Virus genome (UHGV): UHGV-0195556
Source: a virus
Strand: one strand, 5' to 3'
DNA: 28,630 bases
Shown here one piece after another: positions 1-12,361 of this stretch. Made by a program: the position numbers and the translations under genes. How positions within the stretch are numbered: position 1 is the first letter of the stretch; every line of letters begins with the position of its first letter. The notes beneath the pieces were generated by a model. It was given only the letters and a program-made list of their open reading frames with translations, did no database searches and was not told the DNA's origin.

Positions 1-696
1 GCGCTAAAATCGTCGCTGGATACCCTGAATCAGGAAATTCTGGATATCAAAAATCAGGAGTTATCGGGAACGTTAACTCTGTATTCCCGGCCCTCTATCG
101 CCCAATGCTGGTTGGTGCCCGCATTAGGTGACTTTACACGCCGATATCCGTCTATTTCGCTCACCGTGCTCACTGGTAATGACAATGTCAATTTGCAACG
201 TGCCGGAATCGATTTGGCGATCTACTTTGATGATGCGCCGTCAGCGCAACTGACCCATAACTTTCTGATGGATGAAGAAATCTTGCCAGTTTGTAGCCCG
301 GAGTACGCTCATAGACATGATTTAACCAACACGGTAATTAACCTGCGTCACTGTACGTTGCTCCATGACAGACAGGCATGGAGCAACGACTCCGGTACGG
401 ATGAATGGCATAGTTGGGCGCAACATTATGCGGTTAATTTGCCGACATCTTCTGGAATTGGCTTTGATCGTTCTGATTTAGCCGTTATCGCCGCGATGAA
501 TCATGTTGGGGTGGCGATGGGAAGGAAACGCCTGGTACAAAAAAGGCTTGCCAGTGGTGAGCTCGTCGCGCCGTTTGGCGATATGACGGTGAAATGCCAT
601 CAGCATTATTACATCACCACATTACCGGGCAGGCAGTGGCCAAAAATTGAGGCATTTATTACTTGGTTAAGAGAACAGGTAAAAACCACTTCATAA
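1..696 (+). CDS. dsdC: LysR-family transcriptional regulator, 3' part (5' end lies outside window); DsdC-like D-serine deaminase activator
   Basis: Frame 1 is open from base 1 to the stop at 694-696; sequence resembles a LysR effector-binding domain; recalled DsdC sequence and neighbourhood (torI / argW-type prophage att next to dsdC in E. coli K-12) agree. Confidence 0.75.
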   Translation, partial: ALKSSLDTLNQEILDIKNQELSGTLTLYSRPSIAQCWLVPALGDFTRRYPSISLTVLTGNDNVNLQRAGIDLAIYFDDAPSAQLTHNFLMDEEILPVCSPEYAHRHDLTNTVINLRHCTLLHDRQAWSNDSGTDEWHSWAQHYAVNLPTSSGIGFDRSDLAVIAAMNHVGVAMGRKRLVQKRLASGELVAPFGDMTVKCHQHYYITTLPGRQWPKIEAFITWLREQVKTTS

Positions 697-794: not shown

Positions 795-810
795 ATGGTG
801 TCCCCTGCAG
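795..810. repeat. att core copy 1 (ATGGTGTCCCCTGCAG), outer boundary of the satellite on the dsdC side
   Basis: Exact 16-bp direct repeat of 11759-11774; reverse complement matches the recalled 3' end of tRNA-Arg argW (CTGCAGGGGACACCA). Confidence 0.7.
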
Positions 811-1210
811 GAATGTGATTAATGAATTAAGAAATTGATTTTTATGAATATAAAATTTTTATTGTCATAATTCTATACACTTAGTTATACACATAAGAAA
901 AAATCAGTGATTTTTATGGACTGGGTGTATCTTCCCCAGCCCAGCCCAGCCCCAACAAACCTAATGCAGTCTTTAGTTTACAAATTGTTACATATATTAT
1001 TCGTCAAATTTCATTATTATCAGAGATTAACAAGCATTGGCAAAGGTTGTCACTCAGTAATACTCACCATTATTAACTATTATTCACCATTATTTAGTAT
1101 TCAAATTCTTTGAATGAGTTTGAAAGTGCCAGTCTTTACGTATTAATTCTTCTGTGCAAGTATATATACACCCAATAGAGACTAATTAAGTCTTAGTATA
1201 AATATCTAAT

Positions 1211-1453
1211 GTGAAGGACATAGCCATGAGCTTATTGCCTCGGGAAAACGCACCCCAAAAAAGATATAGACTTCTGAGAATATCAGAAGTGATTAATTTG
1301 ACTGGCTTACCCAAGTCAACAATTTATCTAAAGATAAAGAATGATGAATTTCCGAACCAAGTTTCTATCGGTTCTCGTTCTGTTGCATGGGTGGAGCATG
1401 AAGTTAATGAATGGATAGAGAAGAATATTCTCAATAGAAAATTAAACTCCTAA
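1211..1453 (+). CDS. AlpA-family phage regulatory protein (small DNA-binding activator/excisionase-like)
   Basis: 80-aa ORF with MerR-like HTH typical of AlpA family; first gene inside the att boundary; AlpA is a marker of P4-like satellites. Confidence 0.7.
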   Translation: MKDIAMSLLPRENAPQKRYRLLRISEVINLTGLPKSTIYLKIKNDEFPNQVSIGSRSVAWVEHEVNEWIEKNILNRKLNS

Positions 1454-1470
1454 ATTGAGGTGGCAAATAT

Positions 1471-2331
1471 ATGGTTGACAATGTTTTTAAGAAGAAATTG
1501 GCATCAATTAAGAACGAACATGTGTCGGTGTTAGATAGTTACAAAGTAAGATCATTTAAAGAGACTCATAGCGACACGGCCTGTATTGTGCGTATTATTG
1601 AAATATATTCACTGAATAAGCTGCGAGCTAAAGGTGAAAAGCTGTATTCACTTACGGGGTTAACAGTACCTGATACGGAAACTGTGGCGAATGAGATCAA
1701 CCTGCTCCTGAGCCGTTATGCCCAGTTGTGTCGTCAGGAAGAGGAAGAGTTATCTTTCCGGCAGCGTGAAGTGACAAATGCGGAAGTTGCATGGAAAAGC
1801 ACATTCTCAAAAAACGGCGTCAGTAGCATTGCTGAAGCCAAAACGAATAAAATGGGGCATGCTGAACGAGCGGATGCTGAACGGTATTACCATCTGGCTG
1901 TTTCCCGGTTGAATGAACAACATAGTCGATTGAGCACGATCAAGCTTTTGCCGGGAGTACTGGCCGATGAAGGAAACTACATTGGGAAGGGAATCGATAA
2001 GCGTTTACTGAATATATTTCCTCAATCCGGCCAGATCCCTGCTGATTTTATTTCTGTATTTAATGACAGTGACGTTGTCCGTGATATTAAATTTATTACT
2101 GATGCACTCAAGTCTTTATCTGATTCCGTGAGTGAAATTATTAGTCGTTGTAGCGTTCCAACTGATCGTTATGTATTAAATAACGGTGGAATGGCAAGAG
2201 CTATGGCTTACAGGGAGTACTATCGAGCAGATAATTATGTATTACGTTCAGTCGTAAGTGACCGGGATTATGTTGAGCATGTAATGAAATACAATCTGGT
2301 TACTGAGTACAAAAATAAAATCTTTTCTTAA
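1471..2331 (+). CDS. hypothetical protein; candidate capsid-assembly factor by position (immediately upstream of capsid homologue)
   Basis: 286-aa ORF with RBS (GAGGTGG) 18 nt after the alpA stop; no family recognised by eye; does not match my recollection of P2 gpO or P4 Sid/Psu. Confidence 0.45.
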   Translation: MVDNVFKKKLASIKNEHVSVLDSYKVRSFKETHSDTACIVRIIEIYSLNKLRAKGEKLYSLTGLTVPDTETVANEINLLLSRYAQLCRQEEEELSFRQREVTNAEVAWKSTFSKNGVSSIAEAKTNKMGHAERADAERYYHLAVSRLNEQHSRLSTIKLLPGVLADEGNYIGKGIDKRLLNIFPQSGQIPADFISVFNDSDVVRDIKFITDALKSLSDSVSEIISRCSVPTDRYVLNNGGMARAMAYREYYRADNYVLRSVVSDRDYVEHVMKYNLVTEYKNKIFS

Positions 2332-2353
2332 ATACTTAAAAAGGTGAAAAACT

Positions 2354-3358
2354 ATGTATGCCTTCAAAACTGAAAGGCCGGACGCAGCACGTCGTTATCA
2401 TAATAAATTCGTCACTGGCACTAACTATCAGGAAGAATCAAACAGACGCTTTGCATTAAGCGAACCTACTGAAAATATACTGCGTACCTCAATTCTGGAA
2501 TCCGGGTGGCTTATTAAAAATATTACCCTACGTGATGTTAACGCCGTGTCAGGTAATGCCGTCAATATTGGTGCCAGTGAACTGTATACCGGACGTGTGG
2601 ATGGTGGCCGTTTCCACAAAAAAATGGCAATCAATGGTACGGAGTTCTTTCTGACAGAGACGGATACCTGCGCCCGGATCAGCTATTCCGATATGTCTCA
2701 TATTTACCATACCGGCGTGCCGGATGAGTTTGAGAAAACGGTTGAGAGCTTTTTTGCCCAGGCATATGCGCTGGACATGCTGCGGGTCGGTTTCAACGGT
2801 GTGTCGATTGCAAATACTACAAACCCGGAAATCAATAAAAAAGGCGAGGATGTCAATATTGGCTGGCATGCACTGGCGAAAGCCTACGGGAACGGAAAGC
2901 AAATCATCTCTGAGCCTGTCACTCTGGGAGAGACTGGCACCTGGAAAAATATTGATGCTCTGGCCAACCATCTGATTACAGAGCTTATTGCTGAGCAGTT
3001 TCGTGAAGATCCTCGTCTGGTTGTACTGGTTGGGGCAGAGCTGGCAGCACATCAACGCCTGAAGTTATTTAATGCCGCAGACCGCCCGTCTGATGTGAAT
3101 GCGGCACAGATGGCTACAAGTTCTGTTGCTGGCCGCTTTGCGTTTATTCCCCCGTTTATGCCGGGTAAGCGTCTGGCAGTAACGACGCTGGATAATCTGC
3201 ATATTTACACTCAGGCGATAACACGCTGGTTTCGTGCTGAGTTTGATGATGAAAGCAGTGAATACGTGCATTCCTACCTGCGCAATGAAGGTTATGCACT
3301 CGGTGAACCTGAACTGTACGCGGCTGTTGATGAGTGCACCCTGACGTTTGCGGATTGA
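2354..3358 (+). CDS. P2-family major capsid protein homologue (GpN-like)
   Basis: 334-aa ORF with RBS; colinear blocks match recalled P2 gpN (VGFNGV vs AGFNGV; DPRLVVLVGAEL vs DPDLVVIVGRQL; LDNLHIY vs LENLSIY; ESGWL vs ESSDFL). Confidence 0.65.
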   Translation: MYAFKTERPDAARRYHNKFVTGTNYQEESNRRFALSEPTENILRTSILESGWLIKNITLRDVNAVSGNAVNIGASELYTGRVDGGRFHKKMAINGTEFFLTETDTCARISYSDMSHIYHTGVPDEFEKTVESFFAQAYALDMLRVGFNGVSIANTTNPEINKKGEDVNIGWHALAKAYGNGKQIISEPVTLGETGTWKNIDALANHLITELIAEQFREDPRLVVLVGAELAAHQRLKLFNAADRPSDVNAAQMATSSVAGRFAFIPPFMPGKRLAVTTLDNLHIYTQAITRWFRAEFDDESSEYVHSYLRNEGYALGEPELYAAVDECTLTFAD

Positions 3359-3371
3359 CTTAGCGACAGAA

Positions 3372-3398
3372 AGACCCGCTCAGAGGCGGGTCTCGTTT
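3372..3398 (+). terminator. putative rho-independent terminator after capsid gene
   Basis: Inverted repeat AGACCCGC / GCGGGTCT with 6-nt loop followed by a short T-containing tract. Confidence 0.4.
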
Positions 3399-3496
3399 AC
3401 AGCATCAGGAAAAATGAAGAACTATTTTTAAGCAGAGGCTTAAGCATGCCAGCGTTAATTAATCCAGGCAATGATCAGTTTTCGGTTATAAATTTC

Positions 3497-3526
3497 TTGC
3501 CTCACCAGGAATGCGCGGGATATAGT
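3497..3526 (+). promoter_or_regulatory. putative sigma70 promoter driving the immunity/replication operon (P4 PLE analogue)
   Basis: TTGCCT then 18-bp spacer then TATAGT, located upstream of the seqA-like element. Confidence 0.3.
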
Positions 3527-3556
3527 TTAAAGGTTGCCGCAAAATCGGCAGCCGGG

Positions 3557-3581
3557 CGTAGGAACCCGTGTTATCTGAAGG
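3557..3581 (+). promoter_or_regulatory. seqA-like target site of the immunity RNA
   Basis: GCGTAGGAAC...TATCTGAAGG, repeated at 3781-3821 and complementary to 3735-3756. Confidence 0.5.
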
Positions 3582-3588
3582 CGATACT

Positions 3589-3611
3589 ACACGCGCTAGG
3601 CGTGTTTTTTT
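3589..3611 (+). terminator. rho-independent terminator directly downstream of the seqA-like site (immunity terminator candidate)
   Basis: Stem ACACGC/GCGTGT with 5-nt loop followed by TTTTTTTGTGT. Confidence 0.55.
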
Positions 3612-3696
3612 GTGTCGCAGCTTTGACTCACCTAAAATTTATGGTGTGGTGGCTGATTGTATTTTTTTATTTTTTACGCCACATCATCAGAATTAT

Positions 3697-3775
3697 GGTA
3701 GTCCAGGCGGGGCAGCTTTCGGGCTGGCCGGTATCCTTCAGAGCCGGTATTCCTACCCCCGTCTGGGCTACCACC
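3697..3775 (+). ncRNA. structured small RNA, P4 CI-RNA-like immunity factor candidate
   Basis: 16-bp closing stem GGTAGTCCAGGCGGGG / CCCCGTCTGGGCTACC (two G-U pairs) enclosing internal hairpins; interior segment CCTTCAGA..TTCCTAC is complementary to both flanking seqA/seqC-like repeats; no credible ORF. Confidence 0.5.
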
Positions 3776-3780
3776 CATGA

Positions 3781-3821
3781 GCGTAGGAACTCCGGTGGTA
3801 GCGTTACCCGCTATCTGAAGG
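3781..3821 (+). promoter_or_regulatory. seqC-like target site of the immunity RNA
   Basis: Second copy of GCGTAGGAAC...CTATCTGAAGG immediately upstream of the RBS of the next CDS. Confidence 0.5.
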
Positions 3822-3832
3822 AGGTTGCCATT

Positions 3833-4036
3833 ATGGCTACAGTCCCTGCTTTATCTCACCCTGAATTTACCTTTGTCTTTCTGGCTGTCCGCCGTACAGA
3901 CCGTGATGCCCGTCCACGCCCTGTGCGTGTAATCGCAGAATGCGAGCATGCTGCACGCCTTAAACTTGCCACTGAATTTATCCTGAGCTTTGCTGCCCGT
4001 ATCCCTGTGAAAAGAGCCGGGGAGGTGGTTGCATGA
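3833..4036 (+). CDS. hypothetical protein (first gene of the replication operon)
   Basis: ATG preceded by GAAGGAGG; stop overlaps the next start (ATGA); the 196-aa track ORF 3446-4036 is rejected upstream of this ATG. Confidence 0.5.
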   Translation: MATVPALSHPEFTFVFLAVRRTDRDARPRPVRVIAECEHAARLKLATEFILSFAARIPVKRAGEVVA

Positions 4037-4269
4037 AATCCATGAATTTTAAGCAAGGCTGCATATTGAGTGAACAGGGGGAGAGTCGTCTGTTACGGGC
4101 GGCACTGGCCAGTGAGTTTCTTGCAGAGGTCTTGTCCGTGCCCACAGTGAATGGAGCGAGAACTGTTTCAGCGGAAGGCGCTGCGGCTTTAGTGGCCTGT
4201 ATTGCCGAACAACTGGATGGCGTTGTTAAGGAAACCAGCACAATTAAGGGAGTGATGCGCGATGAATAA
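4033..4269 (+). CDS. hypothetical protein
   Basis: 78-aa ORF translationally coupled to neighbours on both sides. Confidence 0.5.
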   Translation: MKSMNFKQGCILSEQGESRLLRAALASEFLAEVLSVPTVNGARTVSAEGAAALVACIAEQLDGVVKETSTIKGVMRDE

Positions 4270-4672
4270 TAATCAAAATTTAAAGGCGCATGCTTTACGA
4301 ACAGCAGTCTTACGCTACTACATTGCTGATGCATTCATTTCCTTAATGGTGCGTGTTCATAATGAACCTGTTTATATTGAAGATGGCGAACGAATAGAAC
4401 TCTCCCACGAAAAAGTGGTGAGTAATATTATTTACCATATTGAAATGCCGTGGGTGAATGAGTTTGGGGCTGATGCTGGTTGCATACTGGCCGCAGAGAA
4501 ACTGGAAAAAATGCTTAAACCAGGCTTTATGTCAGAAAATATTCGCCTGTCAGTTTTTGGTGTCACAGAGATGCGTGAGGTTTACCGGGATATTATTTTC
4601 GGAGCACCTGATGGCGAACTACCCGAAGGTTTTGAATTTGTGAAGCCGGAAGGTCAGGAGGTGCTGCTGTGA
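4262..4672 (+). CDS. hypothetical protein
   Basis: 136-aa ORF; stop overlaps the GTG start of the primase gene. Confidence 0.5.
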   Translation: MNNNQNLKAHALRTAVLRYYIADAFISLMVRVHNEPVYIEDGERIELSHEKVVSNIIYHIEMPWVNEFGADAGCILAAEKLEKMLKPGFMSENIRLSVFGVTEMREVYRDIIFGAPDGELPEGFEFVKPEGQEVLL

Positions 4673-7356
4673 AAACACCGTCTGTATCCACGATTTCCGG
4701 AGCTGCAATTGGGCGCTGGCCTTATATCCTGTCAGCATTAGGTATTAAAGTACCGTCCGCAGGACATCATGGGGCTTGCCCTGCCTGTGGTGGAAAAGAT
4801 CGTTTTCGACTGGACGATAAAGCGGGGCGAGGGACGTGGTTTTGTAATCAGTGCGGTCATGGCGATGGTCTTGATCTGGTTCGTCTGGTGACAGGAAGAA
4901 AGATAAAAGAAGTCGCCGGGATGGTATCTGAGGCGCTTGCATTACCAGAAATACAGGAGAAGCCCGCATTGCCAGCCAGGAAAAAGGCCGCAGGAAAAGA
5001 AGCGGGCGCGGAGCGATATACCAGACTCAGACAGCAGTCCTGCAATGGTGAGCCGGTCTATCTGACAAATAAGAGCTTACACGGGTATTCACTTCCCTTG
5101 CTGTCACAGCCTTTGAATCTGGCCGGAATAACATTTTCCACCGGTTCATTACTGCTGCCTTTGACGGATATTTCCGGGAATATTACTGGTGGCCAGCTTA
5201 TCAATCCTGACGGGGATAAAAGTCTGCTGCCCGGTAGCCAGCTGTCTGGCGCATTCATTGCCCTGACCGATATACCCGCTGAAACACCTGAACAGGTGAT
5301 TATCACTGAGGGTTTTGCCACGGCGCTTACCGTCAGTCTGCTGACTGAAGGATGGATCGTGGCGGCTGTCGCTGCCACCAATTTACTGAAGGTGACGGAG
5401 CAGATCCGAAAACGCTGGCCGGAAACCCGGATCATTCTGGCCGGAGATAATGATCTGGCTGACGGCAAAGAAAACACCGGGCGTATTCAGGCAGAGAAAG
5501 CCGCCAAAGCGGTGGATGGCTGGGTAACGCTCCCTCCGGTACGCCATAAGGCTGACTGGGATGATTATCGGCAGGAAGTGGGGAAAGAACGGGCGAGAGA
5601 TGCCTTTCGTGAAGAAATGACGCTGCATGGCAAAGGGCAGACCCGTTTACCAGAAGGGTTCCGGCTGACAAAAGAATATTTGTGGTACGACAAGCTGGTT
5701 AATAAGTCTGATGGTGATACAGAGATACGTAATATCAAAATTTGCAGTCCGTTGCGGGTGACGGCAATCACCAGTGATGCTGATGGAAGTAATTACGGGC
5801 GTTTGCTGGAATGGGAAGATACCAACGGAAACAGCCGTAAATGGGCAATGCCGATGGAGATGCTGGGCGGTAGCGGGGAAGAACTGCGCCGCGTTCTGCT
5901 GGTTAACGGGCTTTCTTACATCAACATTAACGGCATGGCCAGAGCATTCCTGATGGAATATATCTCGCTGTGTAAACCGGACAGAAAAGTAACCTGTGTG
6001 AATAAAACTGGCTGGCACGGCGGGGTTTACGTTCTCCAGGATGAAGTGATAGGGCGCGAAGCCCAGTCAGTCATCTTACAAACATCGAGTGTGCAGGGGC
6101 GTGATTTTCGTGTCAGCGGCACATCAGAGGGCTGGCGTGAAAATATAGGCCGTTATTGCATAAAGAATGCCCGTCTTGCCTTTGCGGTGAGTCTGGCATT
6201 TGCTGCCCCCCTTCTGAAACTGGTTGGTATCGGCGGTGGAGGTTATCACCTCAAAGGGGAATCCACAGACGGTAAAACCACGACGATGAAAGTGGCTGCA
6301 TCAGTATGTGGTGGAACAGATTTCTGGCATACGTGGCGGGCGACGGGGAATGCCTTAGAAGGAACGGCGAGCCGCCGCAATGATGCCACGCTGATGCTGG
6401 ATGAAATCCGGGAGGTTGACGGCAGGGAGGCGGGAAATATCGCTTATATGCTGGCTAACGGGCAGGGCAAAGCCAGAGCCAGAACAGATGGTTCGGTAAG
6501 GGAAACCAACCGCTGGAATCTGTTGTTTCTGTCTACCGGGGAACTGTCACTGGTAGAGCATGCGGCAAGCGCCGGGGAACGTACGTATGCCGGGGTTGAG
6601 GTCAGAATGATCCAGATCCCAAGCGATTCGGGCAAGTATGGCGTGTTTGAAGAACTTCATGGCTTCAGTAGCGGGAAAACCCTGGCTGAGCATCTTGAGC
6701 AGCACGTAGCGCATTATCATGGTGCACCATTCCGCGACTGGCTGTATTGCCTGACCGCTGATCTGCCGGAACTGACCAGTCAGGCGAAAGCCTTATTGAA
6801 AGAGTATACCCGAAGGCTGACGCCGGAAAATGCCGGGAATCAGGTTGGCCGGGCTGTTACCCGTTTTGCTCTGGTTGCGATGGCCGGGGAGCTGGCCACA
6901 AAAGCGGGCATCACAGGATGGCCGGAGGGAGAGGCCTTTCGTGCCGCTCAAAGCTGTCTGGCTGCATGGATGGCTGACCGGGGCCATACAGCTAATCAGG
7001 AAGATAAAGCGGCACTTGAACAGGTTCGGGACTTCATGACGCGTAATCAGTTCAGTCGGTTTGCTGACTGGAATGACGACAGGAACCGGCCTGTTTCAAT
7101 GATGGGATTCAGAAAAGTCGATAAAGGAGACAACGTGACAGAGCCGGTTGTGACGTTCTACGTTCTCCCGTCAGGCTGGAAGGAGATCTGTAAGGGATTT
7201 GACTCGCGTAAGGTGGCCAGGTTGTGTGTGGACGCGGGCTGGCTGAAACCCGGTGAAGATGGCCGGACGCAAAACAGCATTCGCCTGCCAGAAATAGGGC
7301 TTAAACGTGTGTACCAGTTCAATACACAGGTACTGGGAAGCGCTGAACCTGAGTGA
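4669..7356 (+). CDS. P4 alpha-like bifunctional DNA primase/helicase (zinc ribbon + TOPRIM + P-loop NTPase)
   Basis: 895-aa ORF with GTG start after AGGAGG; N-terminal CPACGG...CNQCGH zinc-binding motif; TOPRIM-like ITEGFATAL..AGDND; Walker A GESTDGKTT. Confidence 0.8.
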   Translation: MKTPSVSTISGAAIGRWPYILSALGIKVPSAGHHGACPACGGKDRFRLDDKAGRGTWFCNQCGHGDGLDLVRLVTGRKIKEVAGMVSEALALPEIQEKPALPARKKAAGKEAGAERYTRLRQQSCNGEPVYLTNKSLHGYSLPLLSQPLNLAGITFSTGSLLLPLTDISGNITGGQLINPDGDKSLLPGSQLSGAFIALTDIPAETPEQVIITEGFATALTVSLLTEGWIVAAVAATNLLKVTEQIRKRWPETRIILAGDNDLADGKENTGRIQAEKAAKAVDGWVTLPPVRHKADWDDYRQEVGKERARDAFREEMTLHGKGQTRLPEGFRLTKEYLWYDKLVNKSDGDTEIRNIKICSPLRVTAITSDADGSNYGRLLEWEDTNGNSRKWAMPMEMLGGSGEELRRVLLVNGLSYININGMARAFLMEYISLCKPDRKVTCVNKTGWHGGVYVLQDEVIGREAQSVILQTSSVQGRDFRVSGTSEGWRENIGRYCIKNARLAFAVSLAFAAPLLKLVGIGGGGYHLKGESTDGKTTTMKVAASVCGGTDFWHTWRATGNALEGTASRRNDATLMLDEIREVDGREAGNIAYMLANGQGKARARTDGSVRETNRWNLLFLSTGELSLVEHAASAGERTYAGVEVRMIQIPSDSGKYGVFEELHGFSSGKTLAEHLEQHVAHYHGAPFRDWLYCLTADLPELTSQAKALLKEYTRRLTPENAGNQVGRAVTRFALVAMAGELATKAGITGWPEGEAFRAAQSCLAAWMADRGHTANQEDKAALEQVRDFMTRNQFSRFADWNDDRNRPVSMMGFRKVDKGDNVTEPVVTFYVLPSGWKEICKGFDSRKVARLCVDAGWLKPGEDGRTQNSIRLPEIGLKRVYQFNTQVLGSAEPE

Positions 7357-7380
7357 TTATCGCGTGAGTCTTATTTTTAT

Positions 7381-7570
7381 GAGGTAACACTGGTAACAGA
7401 GGTAACACCCGTTACTGATGCGGTTCTTCAGTGTTACCAGTCAAAAATACTGACTGGTAACAGAGGTAACAAAAAATGGTGTGTTACCACGCGTTACCTC
7501 TTGATTTTGCTAACTGGTAACAGATTAAATCCTTTTAAATCAATAGCGTTACACGTGTTACCAGTGTTAC
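7381..7570. repeat. iteron array, candidate satellite replication origin
   Basis: At least 9 copies of GGTAACA / TGTTACC in both orientations within about 190 bp immediately downstream of the primase gene; resembles P4 type-I iterons (TGTTCACC) as recalled. Confidence 0.6.
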
Positions 7571-7638
7571 ACGTTCAGAACAAGAGGTAGGGATCCAAAT
7601 CCCTTCTTCTGGCGGGCAACAGTATAGGGCACAGAACG

Positions 7639-7911
7639 ATGAAGATGATGAGAATGTACTGCCCCACATGTCAGGCAGTAGCACGGATAGGTAAAACAAA
7701 CAGGAAACACCCACAACTGTACGATGTGTACTGCTATTGCTCTAATGTGGAGTGCGGTCACTCGTTTGTGATGAATGTTGCTTTCTCCCATTCCGTTAGT
7801 CCAAGCGCGCTGAACGGGCAGGGAAGGGTTAAAGAGCTGATTGATGCAATTCCACCCGAGGAACGGGAAAAGGCTTTAAAGTTGCTGCTGGCTGCGCAAA
7901 AGAATGGGTAA
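7639..7911 (+). CDS. Ogr/Delta-family zinc-finger late-gene transcriptional activator
   Basis: CPTCQ...CYCSNVEC four-cysteine motif as in P2 Ogr / P4 Delta; exact start codon uncertain (several in-frame ATG). Confidence 0.7.
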   Translation: MKMMRMYCPTCQAVARIGKTNRKHPQLYDVYCYCSNVECGHSFVMNVAFSHSVSPSALNGQGRVKELIDAIPPEEREKALKLLLAAQKNG

Positions 7912-8590
7912 AGTATGCGTCGGGAATGGCCGATCTGTTCCCGGAACCTGAACACAGGATTTCAGTTTATACGGTCATAAAATTATTATTTTTCAACTGG
8001 TTATCTTCTTCATGTTTCACAAACCTTCATAAAATCACACACCTAAAATTAATTATCCATTTAATATCATAGAGTTGCGTATTCAGGCCATAGATTCGAC
8101 GGACAGTAAAACTGAAAAAAAATGAATTTCTTTTCATTCTTTTCAGTTCCTGTATCGCAGTACATCTCGAGGACTGGCACGGACTGGCGGTATCGTTTGT
8201 AAAAAATCCAGGCTGAAAATTTTTAGTGATATGAAAACCGCAGGCGGGTGCGGTGTAGTGCCGTTTTGGTCTGTCGAGCGTATATTTTCCTTTTTCACGA
8301 TTGCTGCATATCAAAACGAATGTGCAGATATCAGGCCGTGTCAAACCGTGAATCGTGGAGCCTAAATGCCCAAACTACGTTTGTAGACCTAGCTAGGGGA
8401 AGGTTTCCACATATACTGCTACCTATCTTCCAGTCGCTGGTGAGGATCAAGGTAAGCTAACTGGTGAACAAGAAAAGTACTTTCGTATCTTGCGTACTCG
8501 TTTTTTTTGATTAGTATGTACAGGTAGTAACTGGATGGTGAGAATTCGTCATAACTTATCAAATTGCATGATGTTTATAGAGTATGAGTA

Positions 8591-9472
8591 ATGAGTCATA
8601 ATAAAAAGGAATATGCTAAATTTTTCCGTCGCCCCATTTTTTCATCCTTAGCAAAAGGTAAGGATATTTCGGATTTATTTGGGAGTTTTGATTCTTACTG
8701 CTATGAAACACTGTTTTCAAACAATGATAATAATGAACATGAGATTTCACTAAGGGATTTATTTACATCATTATATGATTTTTTGCGTCTGAATTATAGA
8801 AATGAATATGTTTATAAGACAGCACTTGTCAATAAAATAATATTCGGTAAGCACAGCCCAAAAACAAGTTCGTCGTCCATAGAGTTACCAATTAAAAACT
8901 CTATAGTGGATGTTGCGGTGTTTAATGGTACGTCTACAGCTTACGAGATTAAGACAGAGTATGATTCACCAAAAAGGTTGATTACTCAAGCCCCTGATTA
9001 TTTGGATGTTTTTGATAAAGTGTATATAGTTACACATCCAGAGTATGCAAGTAAATATTGTGCTTTAAATCTCCCCAGAGTGGGAGTTATGGTTTTGAAT
9101 AAAAAAGATCAATTGAGTGTCATTAAGGAGGCAGATTCAAATATTGATTATATTAAAAGTGACAGCTTGTTTTCAGTTCTTAGAAAGGAAGAGTTCTTAG
9201 CTATAATAGAAGATTACACTTCAACTAAAATAAATATGCCTAACGGATTGGTTTATGAATATTGTAAAGAGATATTCATGCAGATGCCATTAAACATAGC
9301 AAATAAATACTTTATCTCTGCTATGAAAAAAAGATGTAACGATAAAGTTTTTTTGGATTATATTTATTCTCTTCCAGCATGTTTACGTGTTTTAGGTTAT
9401 GCAACACCATTATCAAGAAAGCAAAAAGAATTCATCATGAATTTGATGGATGTAAAAATTAAAATTTGTTGA
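8591..9472 (+). CDS. hypothetical protein with PD-(D/E)xK-like nuclease motif; cargo gene A
   Basis: 293-aa ORF in strongly AT-rich DNA; motif SIELP...IVDVAVF...AYEIKTE fits an E...D...ExK restriction-endonuclease-like signature. Confidence 0.55.
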   Translation: MSHNKKEYAKFFRRPIFSSLAKGKDISDLFGSFDSYCYETLFSNNDNNEHEISLRDLFTSLYDFLRLNYRNEYVYKTALVNKIIFGKHSPKTSSSSIELPIKNSIVDVAVFNGTSTAYEIKTEYDSPKRLITQAPDYLDVFDKVYIVTHPEYASKYCALNLPRVGVMVLNKKDQLSVIKEADSNIDYIKSDSLFSVLRKEEFLAIIEDYTSTKINMPNGLVYEYCKEIFMQMPLNIANKYFISAMKKRCNDKVFLDYIYSLPACLRVLGYATPLSRKQKEFIMNLMDVKIKIC

Positions 9473-9493
9473 TATCCTCAGGAGTTGTAAGTT

Positions 9494-10444
9494 ATGTATA
9501 GCCCATATTTGTATGCGAGAAGTACAGAGTTATTATGCCTTAGGGACCTCGTTGCGAAGGGAGTTAGCCTAAATGGTCTGCTACCAATTTTAGAACCAAT
9601 TAACGTCAATACGAGAAATTTATTAACATGTTTAAATGTTTGGAATTCTGACATAATTGTTATCCTTAATCCTTATCAGGAAGATTTTTCTTCACACAAT
9701 AACGTCTTAACTTTAAATCAAAATTTATCAAGTGTATTAACAAATAAAAATAATATCATCTCTGGATATCTTATTCAGCCCAATACAACGATTAATGATA
9801 TTAATAATTGGTTGAATGCTAACTTAAATAGACGAGTTGCACTTCTATATGATAATCCATCATTATCCAACTCTGATATTCAGTTGTTGGCGACAAATCA
9901 ATTGATTAGTTATCATGTTGTTTTAAATAATAAAATGCTTCCTAATCAGTGCGCTCTTCTTCCTTTGTCGAAGTTAATTATTATTAGCGATAACTTTAGA
10001 AAGTTAGCAAAAAATGCTGATTATAATGGGCCGGAACTTTTCACGCACGCACATCAATTCGTGGGACAAAATTACTTAGGATTTGGCGATTATACAATTA
10101 CTGGCCAGGTACTAGATCTTGGAGGTGGTCAACCTTCTGCTGTTGCCGCACATTTGGTGTTCAAGAATTTACAAGCGAATACAGTTTGGATTCGTCATTT
10201 TGTATCAAGCAACACGCAACGAGGAAGTTCAAATGTTACTGCAAAATTTTTAGATGTTTCAGATCAAATTACAAATCTTGTTCCCCAACATCCAACCCAG
10301 TTTGGCAGCAACATTGGTCTTAACTATTATTATTACAATAGTCAACCAACTGTAAGGCATTTCCCTGGGTTGCCAAAAAACAAACAGTATCAAATTACTC
10401 ACCATATTTGTTTCATGCTGGATTTAATAGCAGGTCGTATTTAA
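9494..10444 (+). CDS. hypothetical protein; cargo gene B
   Basis: 316-aa ORF with AGGAG RBS 21 nt after gene A, same AT-rich composition; contains GFGDY and LDLGGGQPSAVAAH motifs; 3' end overlaps the convergent integrase by 21 bp. Confidence 0.55.
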   Translation: MYSPYLYARSTELLCLRDLVAKGVSLNGLLPILEPINVNTRNLLTCLNVWNSDIIVILNPYQEDFSSHNNVLTLNQNLSSVLTNKNNIISGYLIQPNTTINDINNWLNANLNRRVALLYDNPSLSNSDIQLLATNQLISYHVVLNNKMLPNQCALLPLSKLIIISDNFRKLAKNADYNGPELFTHAHQFVGQNYLGFGDYTITGQVLDLGGGQPSAVAAHLVFKNLQANTVWIRHFVSSNTQRGSSNVTAKFLDVSDQITNLVPQHPTQFGSNIGLNYYYYNSQPTVRHFPGLPKNKQYQITHHICFMLDLIAGRI

Positions 10445-11599
10445 TAAGCTAGCGTACCATTCCATCATTACTTGTCGATCTTTAATATATTGCGCATGAT
10501 TGTAAGTACCTCGAATAGAGTTCTTATCAACATGCGCAAGCTGCATTTCAATCCAGGCACTTTCAAACCCATGCTCATGCAAGATGGTGCTCATGGTATG
10601 CCTGAAACCGTGACCCGTTAACCGACCGTGATAACCCAGTAGTTTTATCACTTTGTTGATGCTGGCTTCGCTCATTGGTTTACTGACGTCATTCCGGCCA
10701 GGGAAAACGAGGCTGTAATTCCCTGTTATTTCTTGCAGCTTTTTCAGGATATTGATCGCCTGAGTTGATAACGGAACCAGATGGGGGCGGCGTTTCTTCA
10801 TCCGTTCTTTGGGGATCTCCCATAAGGCATTATCTAAATCAAACTCAGCCCATTCCGCTGCACGTAGTTCAATTGTTCGCACGCCTGTTAGCATCAACAG
10901 CTGCGTGGCGTATTTGGTAACTAAACTGCCCTGATAGTTATCCAGAGCATTAACGAACTCGGGCAACTCGCTTTCAGTCAGGAACGGGAAGTGTTGGGTT
11001 TTAGGTTTGTTGAGTGCGATAGCTAAATCGGGTGCAAAATTATACTTTGCTCTACCAGTGGCAACAGCATAACGAAGCACTTCACCACAGCGGCGGCGGA
11101 TCTTACTGGTTTGCTCTAGCGCACCTCTTTTCTCTATTTTTTGCAGGACGGTTAGCAGTTCTAATGGTTCAATCTGCTCAATTGGGCGCTGGCCGATAAA
11201 AGGAAAAATATCCTTTTCCATACAATTGAGAACCTCTTTTGCATAACCCTCTGACCAGGTGGCTTTTTTCGATGAGTGCCATTCTCTGGCCACAGACTCA
11301 AAGCTGTTCTCATGCGCGAACTGCAAAGCAATCTTATCTGCTTTTCTGGCTTCACTTGGGTTTATCCCGTTGGCTAACATCGAACGCGCTTCATCACGTT
11401 TGGTACGTGCCTGTGCCAACGACACATCGCCATATACGCCAAAGGAAATCATCTTAGGCTTACCTGCAAAGCGATAGCGAAAACGCCAGCCTTTACTGCC
11501 CGCTGTGTCGATCAGGAGTGATAGCCCCATACCATCGTTAAGCGTATAGGGTTTGTCCTTCGGTTTTGCTCTTTTTATTTGGATGTCAGATAGCAGCAT
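10424..11599 (-). CDS. tyrosine recombinase, P4-type integrase
   Basis: N-terminal AKPKDKPYTLNDGMGLSL...WRFRY and C-terminal HGFRHT...Y motifs typical of P4-family integrases; start taken at MLLSD (the upstream in-frame ATG at 11647 is less likely). Confidence 0.85.
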   Translation of the reverse strand: MLLSDIQIKRAKPKDKPYTLNDGMGLSLLIDTAGSKGWRFRYRFAGKPKMISFGVYGDVSLAQARTKRDEARSMLANGINPSEARKADKIALQFAHENSFESVAREWHSSKKATWSEGYAKEVLNCMEKDIFPFIGQRPIEQIEPLELLTVLQKIEKRGALEQTSKIRRRCGEVLRYAVATGRAKYNFAPDLAIALNKPKTQHFPFLTESELPEFVNALDNYQGSLVTKYATQLLMLTGVRTIELRAAEWAEFDLDNALWEIPKERMKKRRPHLVPLSTQAINILKKLQEITGNYSLVFPGRNDVSKPMSEASINKVIKLLGYHGRLTGHGFRHTMSTILHEHGFESAWIEMQLAHVDKNSIRGTYNHAQYIKDRQVMMEWYASLLNTTCY

Positions 11600-11758
11600 G
11601 TGTATAGAAAAAAGATCGAACTCAGTTATACACAATGTTATACGCAAAGATGTATAGATTCCATTAGAAATAATGGTACTTTGCTGGACGAGTATAAGGA
11701 GATGATATCAGTTAAAACAGTGAGTTATGGAATTAATTGAACTTAGTGAGAAGTGTTC

Positions 11759-11774
11759 ATGGTGTCCCCTGCAG
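11759..11774. repeat. att core copy 2 (ATGGTGTCCCCTGCAG), junction between satellite and lambdoid prophage
   Basis: Exact copy of 795-810; about 75 bp from the torI stop. Confidence 0.7.
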
Positions 11775-11847
11775 ACATCTACTTGAAGCGGCAGGGGATT
11801 GATTAGAATGGTATTTTTTAGATGTGAGAAATATTTTACCCGCTATT

Positions 11848-12048
11848 TTACCCATTGGCGCGGCTTAAGAGCTTATTTTTGAATTCACAATGGTCACGAT
11901 ATAACCATCTTGCTCGCCCGTGGATAACTTTGGCTTTTGGCAGGTCGCCGGACTTAATCCGGTCATAGATGAAGGTTTTACCGAAGCCAGTATCGGCCAT
12001 GATGAATTTCAAATCAACCAGTGAATCAGGCTGTAGTTCGTGTTGCAT
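11848..12048 (-). CDS. torI: TorI-type excisionase / recombination directionality factor
   Basis: 66-aa protein MQHELQPDSLVDLKFIMADTGFGKTFIYDRIKSGDLPKAK... matches recalled KplE1 TorI; located next to the att core. Confidence 0.85.
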   Translation of the reverse strand: MQHELQPDSLVDLKFIMADTGFGKTFIYDRIKSGDLPKAKVIHGRARWLYRDHCEFKNKLLSRANG

Positions 12049-12105
12049 GAGTGCTATCTCCGAATAGGGAATCGAACCTGCAAATCAGGTAATAAAAAAC
12101 CGCCA

Positions 12106-12273
12106 TCAGGCGGCTTGGTGTTCTTTCAGTTCTTCAATTCGAATATTGGTTATGTCTGCATGCGCTATCTGCGCCCATAGCATCCAGTGGTCATAGCAGT
12201 CATTGATGTTCTCTGCTTCGATAACTCTGTTGAATGGCTCTCCATTCCATTCACCTGTGACTCGAAAGTGCAT
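12106..12273 (-). CDS. small hypothetical protein (55 aa)
   Basis: ORF below the track length cutoff, translated by hand (MHFRVTGEWNGEPF...); stop lies within a hairpin followed by a T-run. Confidence 0.3.
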   Translation of the reverse strand: MHFRVTGEWNGEPFNRVIEAENINDCYDHWMLWAQIAHADITNIRIEELKEHQAA

Positions 12274-12361
12274 TTATCATCTCCATAAAACAAAACCCGC
12301 CGTAGCGAGTTCAGATAAAAGAAATCCCCGCGAGTGCGAGGATAGTTACTTGTTCATATTA

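What the first reader, a model, noticed from the sequence alone, without database searches (positions are those of the whole stretch)
795..11774. Tandem (piggy-back) integration of a satellite and a lambdoid prophage at the same argW-derived core
The identical 16-bp core ATGGTGTCCCCTGCAG occurs at 795-810 and 11759-11774, bracketing the satellite. The second copy is also the att core next to torI of the lambdoid prophage. The satellite integrase start is about 160 bp from the inner core copy. This suggests the satellite integrated into the tRNA-derived core already carried by the resident prophage's attachment site. The arrangement should yield three core copies, with the third next to argW and the lambdoid integrase outside the window.
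Basis: partly seen in the sequence, partly recalled or inferred. Interest (0 to 1): 0.5.

Follow-up and report, generated by a model that had tools for sequence, protein, structure and literature searches.

The report
Satellite and prophage tandem at argW
Two unrelated mobile elements, an 11-kb phage satellite and an Sf6-like prophage, sit head-to-tail at the E. coli argW tRNA gene because both integrases use the same 16-bp crossover sequence; this is a real but ordinary tandem array, and the prophage, not the satellite, was most likely the later arrival.

Summary
ATGGTGTCCCCTGCAG occurs exactly at 795-810 and 11759-11774 and nowhere else. It is the reverse complement of the published KplE1/argW core CTGCAGGGGACACCAT. 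The first copy abuts dsdC. The two copies bracket a 10.9-kb P4-related satellite whose integrase ATG (11599) lies 160 bp from the second copy. The second copy also borders torI of an Sf6/HK633-like (P22-like) prophage.

In E. coli Ecol_276, 99.996% identical to the window, the prophage is complete. It ends with intS and a third core that forms the 3' end of an intact argW. The predicted three-core array is therefore real.

The proposed history is not supported. The structure is the same whichever element arrived first. Of 5426 complete genomes, 425 have the satellite directly at argW, 13 have this satellite|torI junction and 6 have the reverse order. The same chromosome and a 100% identical satellite occur without a phage, or with a different P22-like phage. 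In the reverse order the phage element is a decayed remnant. The argW-proximal element therefore looks like the newcomer, which here is the phage.

The satellite's capsid homologue and Ogr/Delta regulator point to a P2-type helper, not its neighbour. Tandem arrays at tRNA genes are well documented.

The parts
1..696 (+). 3' part of dsdC, the chromosomal flank on the side away from argW
   Evidence: Annotated dsdC in identical genomes; ORF ending at 696.
795..810 (+). Core copy 1: the distal junction of the array (dsdC flank | core | satellite distal arm). With the next 4 bases (GAAT) it matches 20 nt of the argW 3' end.
   Evidence: A 216-bp junction query is intact in 419 genomes.
811..11758 (.). 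P4-related phage satellite, 10.9 kb. It is 100% identical in satellite-only ST131-type genomes and 99.84% identical in an unrelated lineage.
871..893 (+). Candidate arm-type sites of the satellite integrase (TTCTATACAC, AGTTATACACA). Related copies lie at 11600-11645 in the other arm.
   Evidence: Shared 9-mers between the arms: 9 observed against 2.0 expected; 6 of 500 shuffles reach that. This is inference, not a binding test.
1211..1453 (+). AlpA-family HTH protein, the probable excisionase/regulator of the satellite. The annotated start is at 1226.
   Evidence: PF05930 E=6e-20; PHROG excisionase families; 27% identity to TorI.
1471..2331 (+). 286-aa all-helical protein of unknown function, directly upstream of the capsid homologue
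   Evidence: No Pfam, PHROG, NCBIfam or PADLOC hit. 105 homologues, nearly all named ones from Enterobacteriaceae, all 'hypothetical'. AF2 pLDDT 86.9. No Foldseek PDB hit below E=0.07.
2354..3358 (+). P2-family major capsid protein homologue carried by the satellite
   Evidence: PF05125 E=1e-66; phrog_70. 48% identity to the MCP of Peduoviridae phage ESSI2_ev015 and about 25% to Peduovirus MCPs.
3446..4036 (+). Ash / Icd-like protein
   Evidence: PF10554 E=3e-32; annotation.
4669..7356 (+). Primase-helicase (Zn-ribbon, Toprim, DUF927), the P4 alpha-type replication protein
   Evidence: phrog_1139 E=5e-185.
7380..7575 (.). Dense array of GGTAACA/TGTTACC repeats downstream of the primase gene; candidate satellite replication origin
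   Evidence: The function is inferred.
7639..7911 (+). Ogr/Delta-type zinc-finger protein, a P2 late-gene activator family
   Evidence: PF04606 E=5e-14.
8591..10444 (+). sce7726 and sce7725 gene pair, cargo next to the integrase; probably an anti-phage system
   Evidence: NCBIfam NF033832 and NF033831; PADLOC candidate model for sce7726.
10424..11599 (-). Satellite tyrosine integrase (arm-binding, central and catalytic domains), 45% identical to IntS
11759..11774 (+). Core copy 2: hybrid att site with the satellite int-side arm on the left and the prophage torI-side arm on the right
   Evidence: This junction is intact in 13 of 5426 genomes.
11833..11853 (+). Two ATTTTACCC repeats, candidate IntS arm-type sites. 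A third copy lies in front of intS in L002.
   Evidence: The published P' sites share a TAAA motif (PMC2951348).
11848..12048 (-). torI, the recombination directionality factor of the KplE1/HK620/Sf6-type module
   Evidence: Annotation; phrog_66; PMC2951348.
11775..28630 (.). Left 16.9 kb of a complete Sf6/HK633-like (P22-like) prophage: early-left genes, immunity, replication, nin region, Q and lysis. The remainder, with intS and argW, lies beyond the window.

Best explanation
The region is a tandem array of two independent integrative elements at the argW tRNA-Arg(CCU) gene. Each element has its own tyrosine integrase (45% identical to the other), its own directionality factor (AlpA-type versus TorI) and its own apparent arm-type sites. 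Both integrases exchange strands inside the same 16 bp taken from the argW 3' end. Integration of one element regenerates a full argW at its integrase end and leaves a displaced core at its far end. A second argW-specific element can then integrate, giving core1 | satellite | core2 | prophage | core3-argW. Core2 is a hybrid site: it acts as the int-side site for the satellite and as the torI-side site for the prophage, so each element should be able to excise alone. In this lineage the satellite was most likely resident first, and the Sf6-like phage then integrated into the regenerated genuine argW site. This fits a pattern in which the newest element lies next to the tRNA. Adjacency is a by-product of shared site specificity, not of a helper relationship, because the satellite's capsid homologue and Ogr/Delta regulator point to a P2-type helper. 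Shown here: the sequence anatomy, the third core and argW in near-identical genomes, and the population counts. Inferred: the order of events, independent excision, the arm-site assignments and the helper type.
For: Exact cores in the window. The third core forms the argW 3' end next to intS in Ecol_276, which is 99.996% identical to the window. The core equals the published KplE1 core. The integrases are homologous but distinct. Different repeat motifs lie in the two sets of arms. Junction census in 5426 complete genomes: empty site 937, dsdC|torI 857, intS|argW 1866, satellite|argW 425, dsdC|satellite 419, satellite|torI 13, intS|satellite 6. With the same chromosomal flank and a 100% identical satellite, there is no phage in L003 and L004, and a different P22-like phage (27% coverage) in ST131 strain 4993. 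A third lineage, JX2, has the satellite with yet another intact P22-like phage in the same order. In the reverse order (strain D6) the phage element is an IS-ridden remnant whose distal core has lost one base, and the satellite is next to argW. A canonical P4-like element forms the same kind of tandem with a P22-like phage. Tandem arrays at tDNAs are described as a general outcome of integration (PMC7192596 and PMC4383910).
Against: The window does not itself contain argW, intS or the third core; these come from near-identical genomes. Order of arrival cannot be read from the junctions, and the parsimony argument uses no explicit phylogeny. ST131 is over-represented, so the 425 genomes are not independent. 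An ancestral tandem followed by repeated phage loss and re-acquisition is not excluded. No excision or integration was tested. The arm-type sites are only motif repeats with modest statistics. The helper type is inferred from gene families alone.
Confidence: 0.85

Rival explanations
1. One reading: the prophage was resident at argW, and the satellite later integrated into the displaced core at the prophage's torI end (the dsdC|core|torI junction).
For: This gives exactly the observed junctions. 857 genomes offer such a dsdC|core|torI target. The literature states that a second element may integrate at either regenerated core (PMC7192596).
Against: The satellite is directly at argW in 425 genomes, against 13 with the tandem junction. 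The identical chromosome and satellite occur without a phage, or with different intact phages. Where an old KplE1-like remnant is present (D6), the satellite lies on the argW side of it and not on the dsdC side. The satellite shares 20 bp with argW but only 16 bp with the torI-side junction.
Confidence: 0.1
2. The two elements behave as one composite unit. They would have been acquired together, either by excision between core1 and core3 or by homologous recombination of a large chromosomal segment, and would move together.
For: Three cores in direct orientation would in principle allow recombination between the outer pair. Three genomes share the 100% identical junction.
Against: Each element is found alone at the same site in hundreds of genomes. 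The same satellite is paired with different phages. The arms at core1 and core3 belong to different integrase systems.
Confidence: 0.04
3. The repeated 16-mer is a chance or low-complexity repeat with no role in recombination.
For: None beyond its short length.
Against: None of 100 shuffles gives two copies. It matches the argW 3' end and the published KplE1 core. It marks the exact boundaries at which genomes with and without each element diverge.
Confidence: 0.01

Closest known systems
KplE1 (CPS-53) / HK620 / Sf6 / CUS-3 recombination module at argW (IntS, TorI, 16-nt core CTGCAGGGGACACCAT)
   Same: Identical 16-nt core. torI sits next to the att site distal from argW. intS is next to argW in the same orientation as the tRNA. 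The prophage early region is 97% identical to Sf6 and HK633 over 62% of its length.
   Different: Here the torI-side att site does not abut dsdC. It abuts the integrase arm of a second element, so it is a hybrid site.
Tandem arrays of integrative genetic elements at tRNA genes (Islander / TIGER; PMC4383910, PMC7192596)
   Same: Each member has its own integrase and its own tDNA fragment in the tRNA's orientation. The arrays arise because integration regenerates the crossover core at both ends.
   Different: Nothing essential. This instance pairs a phage satellite with a non-helper temperate phage, and the population data give a hint about order: the newest element lies next to the tRNA.
P4 and P4-like satellites (int, alpA, alpha primase, delta, sid, psu, eps; PMC8628076)
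   Same: P4-type integrase at a tRNA gene, AlpA, an alpha-type primase with DUF927, an Ogr/Delta zinc finger, an Icd/Ash-like gene, defence cargo next to int, and a size of about 11 kb.
   Different: No Sid or Psu homologue was detected. Instead there is a P2-family major capsid homologue preceded by an unknown helical protein, and the gene order differs from that of the canonical P4-like element in L005.
Helper-embedded satellites (PICIs integrated inside a late gene of their helper prophage; PMC10111431)
   Same: A satellite lies physically next to a prophage.
   Different: This satellite lies outside the prophage at a shared chromosomal att core and interrupts no phage gene. The neighbouring phage is not of the family the satellite's capsid and regulator genes point to.

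Membership tests
Tandem IGE array at a tDNA (Islander criteria) | An intact tRNA gene at one end of the array | tested here: met
   tRNA-Arg(CCU) at L002 15643-15717 in Ecol_276, which is 99.996% identical to the window. It is not inside the window itself.
Tandem IGE array at a tDNA (Islander criteria) | Each element is bounded by a tDNA 3' fragment in the same orientation as the tRNA | tested here: met
   Cores at 795-810 and 11759-11774 and at L002 15703-15718, all in one orientation.
Tandem IGE array at a tDNA (Islander criteria) | Each element has its own integrase gene at its tRNA-proximal end | tested here: met
   Satellite int at 10424-11599 (-), next to core 2. intS at L002 15879-17036, next to argW.
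Tandem IGE array at a tDNA (Islander criteria) | Each element occurs alone at the same site in other genomes, and the empty site exists | tested here: met
   Satellite|argW in 425 genomes, dsdC|torI in 857, empty site in 937.
KplE1/HK620/Sf6 IntS-TorI recombination module | 16-nt core CTGCAGGGGACACCAT duplicated at the prophage ends | tested here: met
KplE1/HK620/Sf6 IntS-TorI recombination module | torI at the end distal from argW, and intS next to argW transcribed in the tRNA's direction | tested here: met
KplE1/HK620/Sf6 IntS-TorI recombination module | IntS arm-type sites (with a TAAA motif) and TorI sites in both arms | tested here: inconclusive
   ATTTTACCC occurs twice next to torI and once before intS. 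The published site coordinates could not be read from the paper text.
P4-like satellite (PMC8628076 component set) | Integrase, alpA, alpha primase and delta | tested here: met
   Pfam and PHROG hits.
P4-like satellite (PMC8628076 component set) | sid and psu, the capsid size-determination and decoration genes | tested here: not met
   No Pfam, PHROG or NCBIfam hit of that kind on any satellite ORF tested. The canonical element in L005 does carry a psu homologue. The authors' own HMMs were not available.
P4-like satellite (PMC8628076 component set) | A P2-type cos site | tested here: inconclusive
   A 19-nt P2 cos sequence recalled from memory gave no match with up to 3 mismatches. The query is unverified.
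Helper-associated ('piggy-back' or helper-embedded) satellite | The adjacent prophage is the satellite's helper | not testable with these tools
   Indirect evidence argues against it: the satellite has a P2-family MCP and Ogr/Delta, while the neighbour has a P22-type capsid, portal and tailspike.

The most novel reading that the evidence does not exclude
The hybrid core-2 site might couple the two elements. torI and the satellite integrase are on the same strand and 249 bp apart, with no intrinsic terminator predicted between them. N-antiterminated early-left transcription of the induced Sf6-like prophage could therefore read across the att site into the satellite integrase gene. Induction of a non-helper phage would then trigger recombination of a P2-type satellite. 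This arrangement arises only in this order of the array.
Probability: 0.07. Interest if true: 0.5.

Novelty: new member of a known kind. Interest (0 to 1): 0.2.

Why it matters
The locus is a clean, well-delimited example of how tRNA att sites gather unrelated mobile elements, with exact boundaries for both. It also warns against reading history or a helper relationship from adjacency. The junctions are the same for either order of arrival, and population data reverse the intuitive story. The practical value is modest: correct delimitation of the argW island in ST131-type genomes, and a natural set of substrates (empty site, each element alone, both orders of the tandem) for testing how two 45%-identical integrases choose among regenerated att sites. 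The satellite itself, which carries its own P2-family capsid homologue in place of Sid and Psu, may be the more interesting object.

Tried and rejected
1. I looked for a tRNA in the window. There is none, so argW had to be taken from near-identical genomes.
2. I tested whether the 286-aa ORF upstream of the satellite capsid gene is a scaffold. It has no similarity to the scaffold of ESSI2_ev015, the phage with the closest capsid. It has no Pfam, PHROG, NCBIfam, PADLOC or PDB sequence hit. Its confident all-helical AF2 model has no significant Foldseek PDB match. Its function stays open.
3. I searched for a P2 cos sequence recalled from memory and found no match. This is uninformative.
4. I searched the phage collection for the satellite and found only a 112-bp match.
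5. Literature searches for this satellite or for a satellite-prophage tandem at argW found no specific description. The Moritz and Welch 2006 paper on argW-dsdCXA island variability is not held in the library.
6. I considered using the junction sequences to infer order of arrival and rejected it, because both orders give identical junctions.
7. A sigma-70 promoter scan around the satellite integrase start found nothing.
Full report
OBSERVATION. The 16-mer ATGGTGTCCCCTGCAG occurs exactly twice in the window, at 795-810 and 11759-11774 on the + strand. No further match appears with up to two mismatches, and none of 100 dinucleotide-preserving shuffles reached two copies. The flanks of the two copies differ immediately on both sides, so the repeat between them is exactly 16 bp. 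No tRNA gene lies in the window.

SOURCE AND LAYOUT. The window is E. coli chromosome. It is 99.996% identical to strain Ecol_276 (NZ_CP018953.1) over its whole length. The only length difference is in a (CCCAG)n tract. The annotation of that genome, together with my Pfam and PHROG scans, gives the following layout:
- dsdC 3' end, up to 696.
- Core 1.
- A 10.9-kb element, in this order: AlpA (1211-1453); a 286-aa unknown protein (1471-2331); a P2-family major capsid homologue (2354-3358); an Ash/Icd-like protein (3446-4036); a Zn-ribbon/Toprim/DUF927 primase (4669-7356); an Ogr/Delta zinc finger (7639-7911); sce7726 and sce7725 (8591-10444); and a tyrosine integrase on the - strand (10424-11599).
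- Core 2.
- torI (11848-12048, - strand), followed by early-left, immunity, replication, nin, Q and lysis genes of a P22-like prophage.

The prophage part best matches Sf6 and HK633 (62% coverage, 97% identity).

BEYOND THE WINDOW. In Ecol_276 the prophage continues through a complete P22-type morphogenesis set and a tailspike. It ends with intS next to a tRNA-Arg(CCU) gene, flanked by yfdC. ARAGORN confirms the tRNA. The 16-mer occurs once there, on the opposite strand, covering the last 15 nt of the tRNA plus one base. The 16-mer is the reverse complement of CTGCAGGGGACACCAT, which Panis et al. give as the duplicated 16-nt core of the KplE1 prophage at argW. They report that this module is shared by HK620, Sf6 and CUS-3 (PMC2951348).

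ANATOMY OF THE SITES. Write the array as: dsdC-flank | core1 | satellite distal arm ... satellite int arm | core2 | phage torI arm ... phage intS arm | core3 + tRNA body.
- The reconstructed satellite attP shares 20 bp with argW (the core plus GAAT). The phage attP shares 16-17 bp.
- The satellite integrase and IntS are homologous but only 45% identical. AlpA and TorI are 27% identical.
- The satellite arms share TATACAC-type motifs at 871-893 and 11600-11645.
- The phage arms carry ATTTTACCC repeats at 11833 and 11845 and in front of intS. This is compatible with the TAAA-containing IntS arm sites in the literature.

Core 2 is therefore a hybrid site that serves two different recombination systems. 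Independent excision of each element is expected but was not tested.

WHICH ELEMENT CAME FIRST. Sequential integration in either order gives the same three junctions, so the structure is silent on this point. I therefore counted 216-bp junctions (at least 80% coverage) in 5426 complete E. coli genomes:

| Junction | Genomes |
|---|---|
| Empty site, dsdC\|core\|argW | 937 |
| dsdC\|core\|torI | 857 |
| intS\|core\|argW | 1866 |
| Satellite int\|core\|argW | 425 |
| dsdC\|core\|satellite | 419 |
| This window's satellite int\|core\|torI | 13 |
| Reverse order, intS\|core\|satellite | 6 |

Context from individual genomes:
- Strains AZ 191 and SA186 have the same flanking protein alleles on both sides and a 100% identical satellite, but no phage.
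- ST131 strain 4993 has the same flank and a 100% identical satellite, but a different P22-like phage: RecT instead of Erf, a different immunity and replication region, and only 27% coverage of the window's phage.
- Strain JX2 has a different chromosomal background (csc genes in place of dsdC). It carries the satellite with yet another intact P22-like phage, in the same order.
- The 13 tandem junctions fall into at least seven identity classes.
- In the reverse order (strain D6) the phage-derived element is an IS-disrupted, pseudogene-rich KplE1-like remnant. Its dsdC-side core has lost one base. The satellite sits next to argW. That satellite is 99.84% identical to the window's, while the chromosomal flank is only 96.3% identical, so the satellite has moved horizontally in the recent past.

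In every case examined the intact, and presumably younger, element lies next to argW. The simplest reading is that newcomers use the regenerated genuine argW site, which alone keeps the tRNA body next to the core. In the window's lineage the satellite was resident and the Sf6-like phage arrived later.

Caveats: there is no explicit phylogeny; ST131 is over-represented; divergent arms escape the megablast junction test, so the counts are lower bounds; and an ancestral tandem followed by loss and re-gain is not strictly excluded.

GENERALITY. A canonical P4-like element (AlpA, a DUF927 primase, a psu homologue and delta, plus a gene annotated only as 'septation initiation protein' in the position where sid would lie) forms the same kind of tandem with a P22-like phage at argW in strain Z1322HEC0003. 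Its junction core has a shorter identity (AAAGTGTCCCCTGCAG). At least ten genomes give the same partial junction hit. Tandem arrays at tRNA genes are a documented general phenomenon. Mageeney et al. state that integration restores the crossover core at both ends and that a second element may integrate at either, producing tandem arrays (PMC7192596). Islander reported 125 tandems among 3919 islands (PMC4383910).

HELPER QUESTION. 'Piggy-back' suggests a functional link. The satellite's capsid homologue belongs to the P2 family: 48% identity to the MCP of the Peduoviridae phage ESSI2_ev015 and about 25% to Peduovirus MCPs. It also encodes an Ogr/Delta-type activator. The neighbouring prophage has a P22-type capsid, portal and tailspike. 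The adjacency is therefore best explained by shared att specificity and not by helper exploitation. This is an inference from gene families.

SIDE OBSERVATIONS.
- The satellite is not a canonical P4-like element. No Sid or Psu homologue was detected. In their place is the capsid homologue, preceded by a 286-aa protein. That protein has 105 homologues, nearly all named ones from Enterobacteriaceae, all 'hypothetical'. Its AF2 model is confident and all-helical (pLDDT 86.9) and has no significant structural match in the PDB. It shows no similarity to the ESSI2_ev015 scaffold. A scaffold-like role is suggested only by its position and helicity.
- A dense GGTAACA/TGTTACC repeat array at 7380-7575, downstream of the primase gene, looks like an origin of replication.
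- A (CCCAG)n tract at 935-952 has 3.6 copies here, 21.6 in Ecol_276 and 18.4 plus 3.6 in AZ 191.
- No intrinsic terminator is predicted between torI and the co-oriented satellite integrase. This leaves open a speculative read-through coupling.

VERDICT. The structural interpretation (a tandem array with three argW-derived cores) is confirmed. The directional 'satellite piggy-backed on the prophage' story is not supported and is probably reversed. The phenomenon is a known kind, and this locus is a new, well-resolved instance of it. Interest is low to moderate (0.2).

Noticed in passing
window 1471-3358: The P4-related satellite has no detectable Sid or Psu. Instead it encodes a P2-family major capsid homologue (48% identity to the MCP of Peduoviridae phage ESSI2_ev015, about 25% to Peduovirus MCPs). 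This is preceded by a 286-aa all-helical protein with no family, PDB-sequence or fold match; its homologues are nearly all from Enterobacteriaceae. It may be a satellite type that supplies its own capsid subunit.
   Followed up: partly
window 935-952 (L001 18935-19042; L003 6935-7026): A perfect (CCCAG)n tract inside the satellite, about 125 bp right of core 1, is hypervariable between otherwise identical genomes: 3.6 copies here, 21.6 in Ecol_276 and 18.4 plus 3.6 in AZ 191. It is either a true VNTR or an assembly collapse.
   Followed up: partly
window 7380-7575: A dense array of direct and inverted GGTAACA/TGTTACC repeats, including two exact 19-mers ACTGGTAACAGAGGTAACA, lies immediately downstream of the primase gene. 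It is a candidate satellite replication origin.
   Followed up: partly
window 8591-10444: An sce7726/sce7725 gene pair sits between the Ogr/Delta gene and the integrase, the position where P4-like satellites usually carry anti-phage cargo. Only sce7726 hits a PADLOC candidate model.
   Followed up: partly
window 11599-12048, - strand: torI and the satellite integrase are co-oriented and 249 bp apart across the hybrid att site, with no predicted intrinsic terminator between them. Three terminator-like hairpins lie upstream of torI (12097-12343).
   Followed up: no
L007 6640-6665 (strain D6): The dsdC-side core of the old KplE1-like remnant has a 1-nt deletion (ATGGTGTCCC-TGCAG). This probably fixes that remnant in place.
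   Followed up: no
census across E. coli genomes: IntS-type elements occupy argW in 1866 of 5426 genomes and the satellite is present in about 440, yet only 19 genomes have both in tandem. That is fewer than independence would predict (about 150). The shortfall could reflect lineage structure or interference between the elements.
   Followed up: no
L005 5075-15857 and 16041-16056: A canonical P4-like satellite (with psu and delta homologues) is also in tandem with a P22-like prophage at argW, in a csc-bearing background. Its junction identity is shorter (AAAGTGTCCCCTGCAG).
   Followed up: partly
window 1056-1101: ACCATTATTA repeats (period 10, 2.9 copies) lie within a 20-bp periodic tract between core 1 and alpA. 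Their function is unknown.
   Followed up: no
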